A stretch of 64,000 nucleotides of DNA from Balamuthia mandrillaris. Lineage: Eukaryota. This document shows, one piece after another, positions 28,740-50,651 of the stretch. How positions within the stretch are numbered: position 1 is the first letter of the stretch; each line of letters starts with the position of its first letter. A program made the translations under genes and the position numbers. Location: contig JAVKOQ020000061.1 of assembly GCA_031835245.2 (NCBI GenBank), positions 1 through 64,000 of the forward strand, written 5' to 3'. The notes under the pieces were generated by a model. The model had not been told where the DNA came from. It searched no databases and saw only the letters and a program-made list of their open reading frames with translations.

Positions 28740-38242
<9,503 letters not shown>

Positions 38243-38614: not shown

Positions 38615-39419
38615 ATGGTGGAGAACATCAAAGGCACCTTCGAGATCCACCTCTTTGTGGCTCCCTTGAACCCGGACCAAGAGACCGTGGACCGGTTCGT
38701 GCAGGCCTGCGAGAGGGCCACCACCGGCCCCAACCACACCGTCAAGGGCCTCTTCCTCTACCTTGACTTTGAGCACCTGGGCTATGCCGGCGTCCTCCAG
38801 AGCTCGCGCTACACCCAAGGCACCATCGAGGACGCTCGTCGCGTGGTCCAAGAGGACTGCGAGATGTTGGAAGCGGCGGGCTTTGAGGTCATTCGCAGAA
38901 AGATCGAGTGTTTGGCCTCTAACGAAGGTAAAAGGAAACAGGAAGAAAGTAACAAACAACAAGCTAACTCTTTTGTCTGTCGTGACAACAACAGGTGTGC
39001 CTAGAAACGAGCAAGAAGATAAGGAACAACTCCCGGGCCACTACTTTGAGTTTCACATCAAGTGCGTCCCCACCGCTACCACGACAGTGGAGGAGGTACA
39101 GGCGGAGCAAGCAGTGGACGTCGAGACCCTGAAGCAACTCTCCGAGAAGCTCTCCAAGGAGCTGAACGTCCGCATCCCGCTCAGCTACAACGCCCTCCGA
39201 CCCTCCCAGCGCTTCCTCAACACCAGAACCTACGGGCTCGGCAGGGATCCCTCCTTCAAGACCGTGGAGGCCATCCGGGAGAGCATCAACGCCCTGGGCC
39301 ACATCCGAGTGGAAAAGGTCATCCGGGAGTTTATCTGCCAGGACGACAACACCGCCCTGGACGCCGGCTGGTTGGAACCCCTTGCCTATCAGAACAAACC
39401 CCTGCCTTGCGCTTCATAG
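38615..39419 (+). CDS. Conserved hypothetical protein (two exons)
   Basis: GC-biased codons and an in-frame GT-AG intron (about 38928-38995). Motifs GTFEIHLFV, IRRKIE, YFEFHIK, LSYNA, REF..DDNTALDAGWL. Confidence 0.75.
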
Positions 39420-40873: not shown

Positions 40874-43663
40874 CTTCTCTTGTTATTTCGTTCTTTTGTT
40901 TGTTATAGAATGAATATGAACCTCCTCCCAACACCCTTGCAGAAGATACCGAAAGCAGCCTCCAAGTCGGCTCAGTGGCTCACATCACTTCCCTCATTCA
41001 CAATGTTGGTCCCTCCTCTTCCTTGGGATCGCTTTGTACCTGGAACTTTTCCGTTGCTGCCCTTCTCTTTGAAGGCAGCGCTGCTCACGCCTCCAACTGT
41101 GAAGCAAGTTACCATCCAAATCTTAGGGTCTCTTGCGAAGTAGATGCTGCCCCAGGCGACACCACGCCCACCATTTCGGTCTCATCTTTGCCCGAACTTT
41201 CAGGCACTCCATCTTTCAATGTTTCTTTCACTTGCCTGGATGAAGCGGGCATCGAAGTGGGAGGAGAACAGCCTTCTCTGAACGTGATGTTCATTGAAGA
41301 ACTCGGTAATGTTGATGTCCGTGTTGATATCCTCTCTTGGTCCTCAGACGAGAAGGAGGAGACCAAACGGCAGCCAGAAGCCGGCCTGGATGGAGAGGAA
41401 ACCAAAGTACAAAGCAAAAGAAAGCAGGTGAGTTCTCCTCCTATGCTTGGTTCAAGTTCCATACTCACGCATATCCTCGCGATAACACCTCAATATTATT
41501 TGCAAGACGGAAGATGGGGCTATCGTCTTTAATGCAACCATTGCTGTGTTTTTAGAGGCCAACATTTCCGGTGCTGGCTTCGCCAGGGATGTGACCTGCG
41601 GAGTCTTTTTCAACGGAGTAGACGCTCCCCTGCTTTCTTCCTCCTCCGAGTCTTCCCCCTCTTGTGTGGACCATGGCGTGCAGTTCACCACCGATGGTCT
41701 TCCCTTTTGGTTGACAGAATGTACATTCGAGGAGATGAGAGCTGGGATTGCATCCAAAGCACAGGCCATCCTCTCTGTGGATCCACGAGTGAGAGAGTTG
41801 CAAGTGTCCGTGGAATGCGACAGCCCTTTCCCAAACACCATCCAAAACCCAGTCGTTCAACCGGTGAGCTTCCATTTTGTGCACGGTACGCTTCCCTTGC
41901 GTTCCTTACGTCGATCCTCGAGTAATGAACTTAGTTTTTGTTTTTTTACCCCAAACAACAGTGGATGCTATCGACGATGATTCCTCAAGTTCTTCTTCAT
42001 CATCATCATCGTCATCGTCGTCGTCTTCTTCTCCGACAGGAGAAAACAATTCAGAAGAGGGTTTCGCGGGCAAATGGATTTGGGTCACCATCGGAGCGGG
42101 AGGCGGGCTGCTCTTGATCCTTCTCATCGTTCCAACCTTGGCATGCATTGCCTATCGCCGACGCAGAGCCCTGCAAAGAAAGAGAAGAGACATGATCGAC
42201 CTGGAGTCTGCTGATGAAATGGAGGTCTACGCCACTCCCACGGCGTTTTCAAGATCGGGAGCCAGCAAACAGGCCTCAGCCTCAGGAGAGAGAGGAATCC
42301 AATGGGAAATACCATTCTCCGAACTGGAGTTCATTGAGGTGATTGGCAAAGGGTAAGTTCCATTCTCCTCACATCCTCTTTTCTTATGAAGTTGGAGCAC
42401 AAACAATACGTTGTTCCTGAAACAGAGGTTTCGGTGTGGTATGGCGAGGCAACTGGAGAGAAACACCTGTCGCCATCAAACTGGTTCGTTCATTCCTTCT
42501 TCATTTCCTCTCCGGACTTTGGATACGGAGAGACTTACCGGGTTGTTGTTTGTTCTTGATGCATAGTTCAACGAGATCATGGATTCTCCGGCCCTCAAAG
42601 AGAACTTCAAAGCTGAAATGAACATTATGAAGTACCCATCTTTGCTCTCTGACTGAGGCCCTTTTCTTTTTCTGTGCACACTCATTGGTTTCATTCTGTG
42701 TTAAACAAAAAACAGGAACCTGAGACCACACACCAATGTTGTGCAACTGTACGGGGTCTGCATGGAAGAGGACCACCCGTGGTGCTTGGTGACGGAGTAC
42801 TTGGAGAAAGGCGACCTCAAGCATTTCCTTTGCGACAACCCGCCTGAAGGTTATCGGCCCATCATCCAGATGGCCATTCAGGTGGCCAGAGGCATGCATC
42901 ACTTGCACTCGGAAGGCATCATCCATCGTGACCTTGCTGCCCGCAACATTCTCCTCACTTCAGAGCTCTCCATCAAAGTTGGAGGTTTGGTTTCTTCTGC
43001 CGTTTTCTTCTTCCTCCTCCTCCCTCTCCTTCGTTCATGGCTTACGAGCCGTGACAACAGACTTTGGTTTGTCAAGCATGGTGGATGAATCCGCTGGAGA
43101 GTCAAAGGTTCCGATAAGATGGACTGCTCCAGAAGCTTTGGACGGAAAAGGCCAAGCCACAGACAAGTCCGACGTGTGGAGTACGTTCTCTGCTCTTCAT
43201 TGCTCTCATCTCTTTCTCTTTCCTTCTCTCCTTCGTTCTTCCTTCCCTCCTGCGTTCGCCAACCATCCCATTCCTCTGTGCGCCTCTTACTCTTTTCCAA
43301 CAGGTTATGGTGTGTTGCTTTGGGAGATGGTGAATCCGGGAAAACAGCCCTACGCCGGACAGAACAACGTTCAGGTCGTTCTCTCCGTGCTGAACGGAGA
43401 GGTGCTCAGCCTGCCTCCTTCCGCTCCACAGCTGTTGCACGACTTGTTGCACGAATGCTTCCAAATAGATCCCAAGAAAAGGTACCTTCTTCCATTCTTT
43501 CGAATGTTCTCCTTCCCTCTCCTCCCCATTTGGTTGGTGCCGGCACTCTCTGACCAGGTCTTTCTCCTCATCTTCTTCATCCTCTCGTTTGTTGCTTTGC
43601 CCGGCAAAAAGGCCTTCATTCCGAGACATCATTAAGCGGTTGCAAAAGGCCAAAGAAGTTTAG
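39708..43663 (+). CDS. Receptor-type tyrosine kinase / TKL with NxGPS-containing (DUF11/Ig-like) ectodomain
   Basis: Signal peptide. VGNAGPSNA and HNVGPSSS in the ectodomain. TM WIWVTIGAGGGLLLILLIVPTLACIAY followed by RRRR. Kinase motifs IGKG.FGVV, VAIK, HRDLAARN, DFGLS, VPIRWTAPE, SDVWS. Confidence 0.88.
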
Positions 43664-43754
43664 GGCGTGAGTTTTGTTCTGTTCCACTGTATGTATCATG
43701 ATGTAAGAAAGGGAGGTACCCTATGAAACTCAACCAGGAGGCACAGAGAAAGAC

Positions 43755-43844: not shown

Positions 43845-43902
43845 CACGTCGTCATGAAAGGTTTTTCGCGTCGTCATGATGAATGGTCACGTCGTCATGA
43901 AA
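43845..43902 (+). promoter_or_regulatory. Triple CRCGTCGTCATGA repeat upstream of PSAT-Maf
   Basis: Copies at 43845, 43867 and 43888, 42-99 nt before the ATG at 43944. Confidence 0.55.
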
Positions 43903-43943: not shown

Positions 43944-44415
43944 ATGAAAGGAGGAGGAGGGCGCGACAGAGCCAAGACGTTCAACTTTAGCGCTGGCCCA
44001 GCCACCTTGCCCACGGAGGTGCTCGAGAGGGCATCCGCGGAGCTGCTAAACTGGCGAGGCTCCGGCATGAGCGTCATGGAAATGTCCCATCGTGGCAAGG
44101 AGTTCATCTCCATTCTTCATCAGGCTGAGGCCGACCTTCGTGAATTGCTGTGAGCAAACTAACTACTTTTTTTTTTCACTTTCTTTTGTGTTGTTGTGAT
44201 CACACTGAACTTTGTTTTGTCGATTCTTGTTGGCTGATGAAAAAACAGTGATTTGCCATCCAACTACAAAGTGTTGTTCCTGCAGGGTGGTGCCACTGCC
44301 CAATTTGCGGCCATCCCGCTCAACATGTTGGCTAACAAGGACAGCGCTGACTACCTTGTCACTGGAAACTGGTCTGACAAGGCTTTTTTCGAAGTACCTT
44401 TTTTTTTTCTCTTTC

Positions 44416-44451
<36 letters not shown>

Positions 44452-46414
44452 CACTCGTGCTCTCTGTTCTCACTCTCACTTTCTTTCTCTCACTGGTTCT
44501 CACTCTGCTCTCTGCTCTCTGCCTAACCTCTTTCGGTCTCTCTCTCTCTCTCTCTCTCTATTTTTCTCTCTATCAAGGCAAAACTCTACTTTAAACCAAA
44601 CATGGTTATGTCAGACTTGCCCAAATTTACTACTGTGCCAGAGCGTGACACGTGGTTCTGCAATCCTGATGCTGCTTACTTTCACTATTGCGACAATGAA
44701 ACCGTTCATGGTGCGTACGTTTCTTTCGTTTTATCATCTATTTTCTTCTTGTTCTTCTTCTCTTCTATCATACCGCTGGTTTGTTCTTCTGGTTCTCTTT
44801 AACAATACGGTTTTCCTATCAGGCATAGAGTTTCCAGCAGACTACTTTGCACAACCAGAGAACAAAGTCTCAGTTCCTCTCGTCGCCGACATGTCCTCCA
44901 ACTTCTGCTCTCGCCCCTTTGATATCACTCCCTACTCAGTCATCTACGCCGGCGCCCAAAAGAACATCGGCATCGCCGGTTTGACCGTCGTCATCGTTCG
45001 CGAGGATGTTCTCTCCGACGAAGAAGGAGATTCAAGAAAGAGCGAGAGGCATCTTTGTCCCACCATTCTCGATTGGCAGCTTTATGCCGACAACGAAAGT
45101 TGTCTCAACACTCCTTCATGCTACGCTATCTACATGGCTGGACTTTGCTTTCGTTGGTTGTTGGACCAAGCAAAGAAAGAAGAACAAGGAGAAGGAAGCT
45201 CGTCGAGTTCAAGCAAGAAGCGATCTCCGTTGGAATGGATCGGCCGACGCAACGAACGGAAAAGCAAGCGACTCTACGATTTCTTGGACCAAAGTAAACT
45301 CTTTCGCTGTCGCGTGCAGGACAAACGTTACCGCTCACGCATGAACGTCACTTTTGGCTTTGCTCATGGAGCGGATCCGGAGCTGGAAGCCCTTCTGGTG
45401 AAGGAGGCCGAAGGGAGATTGTTGTTGGGACTGAAGGGCTATCGCACGTTGGGAGGATTTCGAGCTTCTCTCTACAACGCAATGACCGAAGAAGGAGTGG
45501 AACGGTTGGTGGCGTTCTTGAAAGAGTTTGAGCAGAAGCACGCTTTGCACAAGATGTTGCAGAAGAGGAAGATGAGAGTGGTGTTGGGATCTTCTTCAGT
45601 GTACAGGAAGGCGGTGTTGAAGGAGGAAATGGGATTTAAGGAGTTTGTGACGATGAGCCCTGACATTGACGAGAAGAGCATTCGTAAGCATTTTCCCCGC
45701 CTCTTTCCCTCCTTTCTCTTCTCTCTCTTTTTCCCTCTAAGTGCTTTCAAACGTGTTGCAGGTGATGATGATCCGAAAAAAATGGTTGTGAAGATTGCCA
45801 ATGCGAAAGCTGATGCTCTCCTTCCACTGGTACATACTTCTTTTCTCTCTCTCTTTCTCTTCTCCTTTCTCTCCACATTTGTATCCAATGCTGATTCTCT
45901 GTTTGCACAAAAAAAGTTAAAAGAAGGAGCATTGCTGATAACGTCTGATCAAGTGGTGATGTGCAACGGCGAAGTCAGAGAGAAGCCAACCAATGCTGAG
46001 CACTGTAAATCCTATCTGCGGAGCTATGCCCAACACCCCGCTCAGACCATCTGTGGTGTCGTGGTCACGAATACTTCAACTGGTTTGTTCTTCTCTTTCT
46101 CTCTTTCTTCCTTGTGCATTTGCTTTTCTTCTCTCTTTCTGCAACTTAACAATAACGAATGAACAAACAAACAAACAGGAAAACGTTATGAAGGAGTGGA
46201 TATCGCTGTGCAACACTTCAAACCCATCCCAGAAGAAGCCATCCAAAAGCTGATCGACATCGGGGATGTGATGCACTGCTGCGGCGGGTTCGTGGTCGAA
46301 CAAATGGAGGAGTGGTTGGGCGCTTTGGAAGGAGAGATAGAGTCCGTTCGAGGTCTGCCCAAAGCGCTTACCCTTCGTCTTTTGCAGCAAGCTCTCTCGG
46401 AAAGGTCATCTTAA
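43944..46414 (+). CDS. serC: Phosphoserine aminotransferase fused to a C-terminal Maf (YceF-type) nucleotide pyrophosphatase
   Basis: PSAT motifs [41 protein letters not shown] (PLP Lys), [10 protein letters not shown]. The same exon continues into Maf motifs [15 protein letters not shown], then [24 protein letters not shown]. Confidence 0.88.
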
Positions 46415-49099: not shown

Positions 49100-50651
49100 A
49101 TGTCAAGCCAGAGCCTCCACACCGCCAAATCCATTCTCTCCATTCGCTCACCTTCTTTGGCCGCCTCTGCTCTTCGTCTCTCTCCTGGCCGCTGCTTCTC
49201 CTCTCACTGCTGCCCCTCTTCTTCGCCCTCCAGCCCTCCCGCCCTTCTTCTGGACCGCAGCAAGCAGAAGACGATGAAGGCGGCGGTCTTCAAGGGGGCC
49301 GACCGCATCCTCCTCGAGGAGAAGCCCATCCCCAGGCCCGGCCCCGGCGAGGCCCTCATCAAGATCACCACCACGACCATCTGCGGGACGGACGTGCACA
49401 TCCTCAAGGGCGAATACCCCGTGGAGAGAGGGCTGACCATCGGCCACGAGCCTGTGGGGGTGATCGCCGAGCTCGGCCCCGGCCTCCAGGAGAAGCAGGC
49501 CTGCGGGGGATACCAGGTGGGGCAGAGGGTGGTTGTCGGCGCCATCACGCCCTGCGGGCAGTGCTTCAGCTGCTTGTCCCACCATTCGTCGCAATGCGGA
49601 GGAAAGGTTTGCTTCCGTTTCGTTTCGTTTCGTTCGTTTCGTTCGGTGTTGTCGTTCCCGTTTCGTTCTAACCACTCGCCACCACCACAAATGAAACACA
49701 GGCCATGGGAGGATGGCGCTTTGGCAACACGATCGATGGCGCGCAGGCGGAGTACCTGCTGGTGCCGGATGCAATGGCCAACCTGGCGCCCATCCCCGCC
49801 GGCCTGTCCGACGAGCAGGTGTTGATGTGCCCTGACATTATGAGCACCGGGTTCAGCGGGGCTGAGAGCGGAAACGTGAATATCGGTAGGCAAGTTTTTT
49901 GAGAGAAAGAAGGAGAAACGGCAGAGGAGAAAGAGAGAGAACGAAGAAAGAAAAAGAAACTACAAATGAGCAAGGACACGACCGATAAGATACTCATCCA
50001 TTGTCTTTCCACACCAATGTGCGCAGGAGATAAAGTGGCCGTCTTCGCACAGGGACCCATCGGCCTCTGCGCCACTCTGGGAGCGAAGCTTCGGGGGGCT
50101 TCGATGATCATCGCTGTTGACAGCAATCCCATCCGTCTGGAGATGTCCCGCCGACTCGGTGCCACTCACACCATCAACTTCCGACAGGAGGGAGACGTGG
50201 TGAGGAAAATCCGAGAGGAGCTGACGGAGGGGCGTGGCGTGGATGTCAGCATCGAGGCTTTGGGCCTGCAGGAGACCTTGGAGAGCTGTTTGAAGGTATT
50301 GAAGCCGGGAGGCACGTTGTCCTCGTTGGGAGTCTATTCAGGAAAGTCGGTGCAGCTCCCGTTGGACGCCTTCGCCGCCGGTTTGGGTGACCACAAGGTT
50401 TGTGTTTTAACTTTGTTGCATTCTTGCTTGTCTCTCTTACGCGTCTTCTCTCTGTGTTTGAAAAGTTGGTAACAACGCTATGTCCCGGAGGCAAAGAACG
50501 AATGCGTCGCTTGATGGATGTGTTGGCCTCCGGCTCTGCTGACTTGCGTCCGTTGGTAACCCACCACTTCAAGCTGGATGATATTGAGAAGGCGTATGAC
50601 CTCTTTGCCCATCAGAGGGATGGTGTCTTGAAGGTTGCCATCAAGCCTTAA
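49100..50651 (+). CDS. Zinc-dependent medium-chain alcohol dehydrogenase (bacterial-like) with N-terminal presequence
   Basis: TICGTDVH, GHEPVG, structural Zn motif CGQCFSC...C, PDIMSTG, AQGPIG; three introns. Confidence 0.92.

What the first reader, a model, noticed from the sequence alone, without database searches (positions are those of the whole stretch)
43944..46414. Phosphoserine aminotransferase-Maf fusion
Seen: the PSAT C-terminal helix (...[11 protein letters not shown]) runs with no stop or intron into a Maf N-terminus ([20 protein letters not shown]) at about 45520-45610. Known: residues Y/Q/E at the Maf subfamily positions (SSSVYR, SDQ, GGFVVE) resemble the YceF type, which hydrolyses m7GTP; PSAT acts in serine biosynthesis. 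Inference: a bifunctional enzyme linking serine/one-carbon supply with methylated-nucleotide house-cleaning, or a recent read-through fusion of neighbouring genes.
Basis: partly seen in the sequence, partly recalled or inferred. Interest (0 to 1): 0.7.

Follow-up and report, generated by a model that had tools for sequence, protein, structure and literature searches.

The report
Amoeba serine enzyme fused to Maf
In the brain-infecting amoeba Balamuthia mandrillaris, a gene for a serine-making enzyme is joined in frame to a gene for a nucleotide-cleaning enzyme and the join is transcribed; the two halves look intact and likely work independently, so this is a real but probably incidental gene fusion that we found in no other organism.

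Summary
The fusion is real. A 7-exon gene (43944-46414) encodes 604 aa, identical to NCBI KAL6068469.1 of Balamuthia mandrillaris: PSAT (1-402), a 9-residue linker, then Maf (412-604). A second allele (97%) is also fused. RNA reads, spliced contigs and genomic contigs from five studies (one may be the source) cover the junction with no stop. Maf keeps all six family residues and the YceF triad (Y422, Q483, E567). PSAT keeps its PLP and substrate residues except one His (Y368), and that Tyr is shared with the stand-alone Acanthamoeba orthologue. Variants are mostly synonymous in both halves. The two nearest PSATs stand alone and the nearest named Maf is a stand-alone amoebozoan protein, so the fusion is derived and arose in the Balamuthia line. 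No other PSAT+Maf protein turned up, and no paper on it in the searches run. Best reading: two independent enzymes on one chain. The proposed link between serine supply and m7GTP cleaning has no support here. A Maf-only transcript is not excluded. The scan had not noted this before.

The parts
43847..43900 (+). Three exact copies of an 11-mer 44-97 nt upstream of the ATG; possible promoter element, untested
   Evidence: 3 exact copies at 43847, 43869, 43890 plus 1 one-mismatch site elsewhere; shuffle mean 0.72, 0 of 100 reach 4
43944..44149 (+). Exon 1, PSAT residues 1-69 (H49, R50)
   Evidence: RNA joint 44149-44249
44249..44393 (+). Exon 2, PSAT residues 70-117 (W110)
   Evidence: X10 contig piece adjacent to the exon 3 piece
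44578..44710 (+). Exon 3, PSAT residues 118-161
   Evidence: joint 44709-44822 in X10
44823..45683 (+). Exon 4: PSAT residues 162-402 (D184, K208, Y368, R369, R375), linker, and Maf residues 412-448
   Evidence: reads and contigs
45545..45571 (+). Linker, residues 403-411; predicted to continue the last PSAT helix; M406 reads V in two RNA runs
   Evidence: helix 384-409/410 in both AlphaFold2 models; variants
45572..45574 (+). M412, at the position where many stand-alone relatives start; likely the old Maf start codon
   Evidence: relatives begin with Met just before the ILGS/VLGS motif; inference
45762..45829 (+). Exon 5, Maf residues 449-471 (K464)
   Evidence: joint 45683-45762 in X17, X10, X4
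45917..46082 (+). Exon 6, Maf residues 472-526 (D482, Q483, K494)
   Evidence: X10 piece
46179..46414 (+). Exon 7, Maf residues 527-604 (E567) and stop
   Evidence: joint 46081-46178 in X16, X17, X10

Best explanation
This is one spliced, transcribed Balamuthia gene that joins a phosphoserine aminotransferase in frame to a YceF-type Maf domain; it likely arose in the Balamuthia line when the PSAT stop was lost, and it likely makes a two-enzyme protein whose halves work independently. Shown: reading frame, splicing, presence in several alleles, catalytic residues, stand-alone orthologues in relatives. Inferred: the PSAT half forms the usual PLP dimer and makes phosphoserine from 3-phosphohydroxypyruvate; each subunit carries a Maf domain on its extended last helix, and that domain splits a methylated purine triphosphate, most likely m7GTP, into the monophosphate and pyrophosphate. 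No channelling is expected; the fusion would persist because it harms neither half.
For: Open frame, with reads or contigs across the junction in 6 of 8 runs laid, from 5 studies, one of which may be the source. Second NCBI allele fused, 586 of 603 identical. Maf: S420, R423, E445, K464, D482, K494 plus Y422, Q483, E567 align to YceF and Tb-Maf1 (motif from PMC3899018); it departs at 1 of 45 columns conserved in relatives; fold best matches 2AMH, E 1.7e-15, TM 0.89. PSAT: NF003764 452.2 bits against a cut-off of 253; the residues named for Arabidopsis PSAT1 are kept except H396. Listed variants, nonsynonymous/synonymous: PSAT 9/13, Maf 2/11, linker 1/2, against about 3.5 nonsynonymous sites per synonymous site in each domain. 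The nearest PSATs, Acanthamoeba ELR15305.1 (394 aa) and L081, stand alone and group with Balamuthia at support 100. Nearest named Maf: Soliformovum, stand-alone, 190 aa, 60%. The 11 other long Maf hits carry unrelated partners (NUDIX, HAD, GNAT, acyltransferase, histone fold, L30) or no second Pfam family.
Against: No protein-level evidence that the full chain is made. Raw RNA depth is about 3 times higher over Maf (6.3x) than over PSAT (2.1x), pooled over three runs (about 12 against 8 fragments, rough p 0.014); X18 shows the reverse, with no Maf reads. The PSAT half departs at 18 of 113 columns conserved in 80 bacterial SerCs; Acanthamoeba shares 7 of these. TIGR01364 (439.9 against 443.6) and TIGR00172 (93.1 against 117.15) fall below their cut-offs. 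A second aminotransferase-Maf fusion in the same Maf subclade (P0002) hints that the pairing may not be pure chance. No eukaryotic YceF-type Maf was assayed in the parts of PMC3899018 that I read.
Confidence: 0.7

Rival explanations
1. The locus makes mainly separate products: a Maf-only mRNA from a start inside exon 4 (translated from M406 or M412), or a chain cut at the basic linker, with the full fusion as the PSAT-bearing form.
For: Higher raw RNA depth on the Maf side in X16 and X17; M412 sits where stand-alone relatives start.
Against: Counts are tiny (17, 28 and 8 reads) and X18 shows the reverse. 3' bias, skipped repeats and the 95% filter could give the same picture. A 2037-nt spliced X4 contig at one depth has 867 letters upstream of 45200, against 861 expected to reach the ATG (only 45200-45900 was laid, and a contig does not prove a single transcript). 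No pile-up of read ends was listed, but depth is too low to show one.
Confidence: 0.14
2. The fusion is functional: the Maf domain senses or clears methylated guanine nucleotides and tunes PSAT, or two dimer-forming halves build a larger assembly that ties serine supply to nucleotide pools.
For: Short linker predicted to be a continuous helix; both halves under purifying selection; a separate class I/II aminotransferase tail is fused to a Maf of the same subclade in P0002.
Against: No shared metabolite. No second PSAT+Maf protein (13 hits; 12 hits; 0 of 150 representatives carry Maf; 0 of 80 bacterial serC loci have maf within 3 kb) or 70 (0 of 29 metagenome loci). Other PSAT fusions found are within the pathway and N-terminal: one PGDH and three HAD, among 13 long hits scanned. 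P0002 is a single partial record on a 1187-nt contig.
Confidence: 0.13
3. An artefact: a miscalled stop, a misassembly or a gene-prediction merge.
For: Automatic merges exist among the hits; some other Maf fusions may be such merges.
Against: The junction lies inside one exon, needs no splice prediction, and is read without a stop in runs from five studies with distinct alleles.
Confidence: 0.02

Closest known systems
Acanthamoeba castellanii phosphoserine aminotransferase (ELR15305.1; AGL39310.1)
   Same: Nearest orthologue, 240 of 405 identical by BLASTP; same Tyr in place of the usual His of the GHR loop.
   Different: 394 aa, stand-alone, ends two residues after the point where the Balamuthia chain runs on into the linker and Maf.
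YceF-type Maf pyrophosphatases (E. coli YceF; T. brucei Tb-Maf1, PDB 2AMH; Soliformovum Maf)
   Same: All six Maf residues, the aromatic-Q-E triad and the fold.
   Different: Those are stand-alone. m7GTP activity was measured for E. coli YceF and Salmonella STM1189 only; Tb-Maf1 was docked (PMC3899018).
Human ASMTL (Maf-methyltransferase fusion)
   Same: A eukaryotic Maf fused to a second enzyme (PMC3899018).
   Different: YhdE-type, N-terminal Maf, methyltransferase partner, present in many eukaryotes; here YceF-type, C-terminal, PSAT partner, seen in one species.
PGDH-PSAT fusions of oomycetes, brown algae and Thecamonas
   Same: PSAT fused to another enzyme in a protist (PMC5715807).
   Different: The partner is the preceding pathway enzyme and lies N-terminal, and that PSAT is the SerC_2 type; here the partner is outside the pathway and C-terminal, and the PSAT is the SerC_1 type.

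Membership tests
Phosphoserine aminotransferase (SerC_1 type, class V) | Family profile over the full domain | tested here: met
   NF003764 452.2 against 253; Pfam Aminotran_5 above cut-off; TIGR01364 439.9, just under 443.6
Phosphoserine aminotransferase (SerC_1 type, class V) | PLP-binding residues (Arabidopsis K265, D241, W171, T221, Q264, N306, T307) | tested here: met
   K208, D184, W110, T159, Q207, N257, T258, by the alignment to 6CZX and the residue list in PMC6043687
Phosphoserine aminotransferase (SerC_1 type, class V) | Substrate carboxylate and phosphate site (Arabidopsis R403; H110, R111, H396, R397) | tested here: inconclusive
   R375, H49, R50, R369 kept; H396 is Y368. His in 80 of 80 bacterial SerCs; Tyr in 12 of 137 rows, including Acanthamoeba PSAT and L081, so a natural variant of unknown effect
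Phosphoserine aminotransferase (SerC_1 type, class V) | Dimer with transaminase activity on 3-phosphohydroxypyruvate | not testable with these tools
   needs an assay
Maf nucleotide pyrophosphatase | S-R-E-K-D-K signature | tested here: met
   S420, R423, E445, K464, D482, K494
Maf nucleotide pyrophosphatase | Maf/ITPase fold and profile | tested here: met
   Pfam Maf 122.2 against 27; pLDDT above 90 over most of the domain; Foldseek 2AMH TM 0.89; TIGR00172 is below its cut-off, 93.1 against 117.15
YceF subfamily of Maf | Aromatic-Gln-Glu triad (W12, Q70, E154) instead of R-T-Q | tested here: met
   Y422, Q483, E567
YceF subfamily of Maf | Hydrolysis of m7GTP and not of canonical NTPs | not testable with these tools
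   needs an assay
Pathway-coupled bifunctional enzyme (as PGDH-PSAT) | Halves share an intermediate and the fusion recurs across lineages | tested here: not met
   no shared intermediate (established chemistry of the two families); no second PSAT+Maf protein

The most novel reading that the evidence does not exclude
The Maf domain is a built-in nucleotide sensor or partner for PSAT. Protist YceF-type Mafs have been fused to PLP aminotransferases twice (here, and to a class I/II enzyme in P0002) because their real substrate or signal is tied to amino-acid metabolism, so that methyl-guanine nucleotide levels feed back on serine synthesis in Balamuthia.
Probability: 0.1. Interest if true: 0.7.

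Novelty: new variant of a known kind. Interest (0 to 1): 0.38.

Why it matters
It is a domain pairing not found in other organisms in these searches, in a lethal amoeba with few drugs, and it sets Balamuthia apart from its relative Acanthamoeba. It offers one purifiable protein in which to test two open points: what eukaryotic YceF-type Mafs hydrolyse, and what the Tyr for His in the PSAT phosphate loop does. If the halves proved coupled, it would be a new link between serine synthesis and modified-nucleotide pools. If not, it is a clean example of a tolerated fusion of unrelated housekeeping genes.

Tried and rejected
Degeneration of the PSAT half: considered because of Y368, rejected when Acanthamoeba PSAT and L081 proved to share it. 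Bacterial operon origin: none of 80 bacterial serC loci has maf within 3 kb, the best identity is 55%, and all three PSAT introns are shared with a eukaryotic stand-alone gene; these 80 are the best of 560 and were picked by short patterns. Complex prediction of two PSAT copies with one Maf gave no verdict (score 0.00, alignments not used) and is not used either way. A joint alignment of both halves misaligned (69 rows straddled the junction; one search likewise showed low PSAT identities) and was dropped; two models were folded instead, each reliable for one half only, so the orientation of the domains is unknown. The run search listed no RNA holder on record; X11 and X18 have no cover at the junction. 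The ESM Atlas gave only PSAT clusters at scores up to 0.80. No whole genome is held, so other PSAT or Maf copies in Balamuthia could not be counted; none of the 120 listed short Maf hits (of 412) is named Balamuthia or Acanthamoeba, but most carry no name. The representative library hides proteins within one 50% cluster (P0001 itself is not listed), so fusions close to the Acanthamoeba protein could be missed. Paper searches on the fusion listed nothing on it by title; searches for data on the His gave none. The original AcPSAT paper is not held. bioRxiv supplements are closed; those of 10.1101/2025.02.25.640156 may hold expression data for this gene. Intron loss through a reverse-transcribed read-through mRNA (L081 has three introns where exon 4 has none) was considered as the fusion route; it is speculation.

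Full report
Observation. The window is intron-rich eukaryotic DNA. Six GT-AG introns of 78-184 nt give a 7-exon reading frame from 43944 to 46414, 604 aa, with no internal stop. It is identical to P0001, NCBI KAL6068469.1 of Balamuthia mandrillaris, an amoebozoan of the Centramoebida. Pfam places Aminotran_5 at 13-390 and Maf at 413-597. The junction lies inside exon 4, so it does not depend on a splice prediction; one frame of three is open there. A second NCBI record, KAL6048731.1, is 586 of 603 identical and fused in the same way.

Reads. In one search, raw RNA runs X16 and X17 have 4 and 2 reads at 45550-45559, and X10 has a spliced 661-nt contig from 45464 to 46385; X18 does not cover the junction. 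Introns 1, 3, 4 and 6 appear as joints; introns 2 and 5 follow from adjacent contig pieces. In one search, X1 (possibly the source sample), X4 and X9 bridge the junction and X11 does not cover it; X9 keeps intron 4, X4 lacks it. X4's contig is 2037 nt at one depth, with 867 letters upstream of 45200 against 861 expected to the ATG; that fits a full-length mRNA, but only 45200-45900 was laid. Of 38 letter differences taken from the two tables, none makes a stop; PSAT has 9 nonsynonymous and 13 synonymous, Maf 2 and 11, the linker 1 and 2. Against a single product: pooled raw depth is 6.3x over Maf and 2.1x over PSAT (about 12 against 8 fragments, rough p 0.014; X18 shows the reverse). This is a weak hint with several technical explanations.

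Maf half. PMC3899018 (abstract and parts 1-3 of 6 of the main text) defines the family by S-R-E-K-D-K and the YceF subfamily by aromatic-Q-E, and measured m7GTP hydrolysis in E. coli YceF and Salmonella STM1189; T. brucei Maf1 was only docked. All nine residues are present: S420, R423, E445, K464, D482, K494; Y422, Q483, E567. The domain departs at 1 of 45 columns conserved among 148 relatives, and its model best matches 2AMH. In a quick tree of 150 domains (151 found, one short row left out) it falls in an 18-row clade (SH-aLRT 95) with stand-alone Soliformovum Maf, apart from the named Patescibacteria and plant rows; most rows of that clade are unnamed. 127 of 151 domains start within 15 residues of their N-terminus.

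PSAT half. The best solved match is Arabidopsis PSAT1 (E 1.7e-112). The PLP and substrate residues named in PMC6043687 (passages) are kept, except H396, which binds the phosphoserine phosphate and is Y368 here. His is present in 80 of 80 bacterial SerCs, which first suggested decay. But L081, an intron-bearing metagenome gene, has the same Tyr, shares all three PSAT intron positions and phases, stops just after the last helix, and has a PPR gene and no Maf in the 3 kb downstream. The top hit among 1.84 billion representatives is Acanthamoeba castellanii PSAT, 394 aa, stand-alone, also with Tyr. The three form a clade at support 100 (FastTree, 137 rows, partial rows left out). PMC6257972 (passages) says an earlier study confirmed the phosphorylated pathway in Acanthamoeba and that AcPSAT is expressed stage-specifically; I could not read that study. 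So the Tyr is a lineage trait older than the fusion, and the fusion is the derived state.

Distribution. No other protein with both domains was found: 13 hits, 12, 0 of the best 150 representatives, 0 of 80 bacterial and 0 of 29 metagenome PSAT loci with maf within 3 kb. These searches have blind spots (word-based candidates; 50% clusters). Mafs of this type fuse freely: NUDIX, HAD, GNAT, acyltransferase, histone fold, L30 (some may be prediction merges). P0002 carries what looks like a class I/II aminotransferase tail (Atlas 0.95, family on 46% of cluster members; NCBIfam E 0.009; no Pfam hit) in front of a Maf of the same 7-row subclade (support 90). Other PSAT fusions are N-terminal pathway enzymes: PGDH and HAD (PGDH-PSAT in PMC5715807, passages).

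Mechanism. Both models predict one helix from 384 to 409/410, so the linker extends the last PSAT helix, and Maf begins at M412, where stand-alone relatives start; each model is reliable for one half only. Most likely the PSAT stop was lost and a downstream Maf gene was captured in frame after the split from Acanthamoeba; the product is inferred to be a PSAT dimer carrying two Maf domains, each half working alone (0.70). Rivals: separate products (0.14), true coupling (0.13), artefact (0.02).

Literature and earlier notes. Searches for the fusion (listings only, 20 rows shown where more papers held the terms) gave nothing on it. The main text of 10.1101/2025.02.25.640156 has no occurrence of phosphoserine, Maf or aminotransferase; its supplements are closed. 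PMC9962836 (passages) describes a rice Maf with a knockout phenotype, with no assay in the passages seen. The scan's own notes hold nothing on this fusion.

Verdict. Observation confirmed; interpretation partly supported. A real, transcribed, lineage-restricted fusion of two known enzymes: a new variant of a known kind, interest 0.38.

Noticed in passing
window 43847-43900: Three exact copies of an 11-mer just upstream of the PSAT-Maf start, more than chance gives; may be a transcription-factor site.
   Followed up: partly
window 45443-45445 (Y368); P0152; L081: Tyr replaces the phosphate-binding His of the PSAT GHR loop in Balamuthia, Acanthamoeba and L081, and in 12 of 137 rows overall.
   Followed up: partly
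P0002 (partial, 1187-nt contig): A likely class I/II aminotransferase tail fused to a Maf of the same subclade: a second aminotransferase-Maf fusion.
   Followed up: partly
P0173, P0229, P0250, P0166: HAD-PSAT fusions (possibly phosphoserine phosphatase) and a PGDH-PSAT fusion with SerC_1-like PSAT among the representatives.
   Followed up: no
P0026-P0144: This YceF-type Maf group is shared by protists, chytrids, plants and Patescibacteria at 44-62% identity; the aromatic position varies (W 47, G 39, F 12, Y 11, A 11 of 150 rows).
   Followed up: partly
P0039: A Maf filed under the locust Schistocerca gregaria groups with the clade that holds the amoebozoan Mafs; possibly a contaminant.
   Followed up: no
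L081:1707-4142: Intronless PPR protein with an E motif next to the stand-alone PSAT of an unnamed eukaryote.
   Followed up: partly
window 41877-43664: Upstream neighbour on the same strand: a Tyr/Ser-Thr kinase preceded by a hydrophobic stretch; likely a receptor-type kinase.
   Followed up: partly
window 38615-39419: Two overlapping ORFs with similar-looking starts of a small domain and no Pfam hit; likely one spliced gene of unknown family.
   Followed up: no
window 35337-37975 (-) and 49100-50651 (+): A family B DNA polymerase exonuclease domain and a zinc alcohol dehydrogenase.
   Followed up: no
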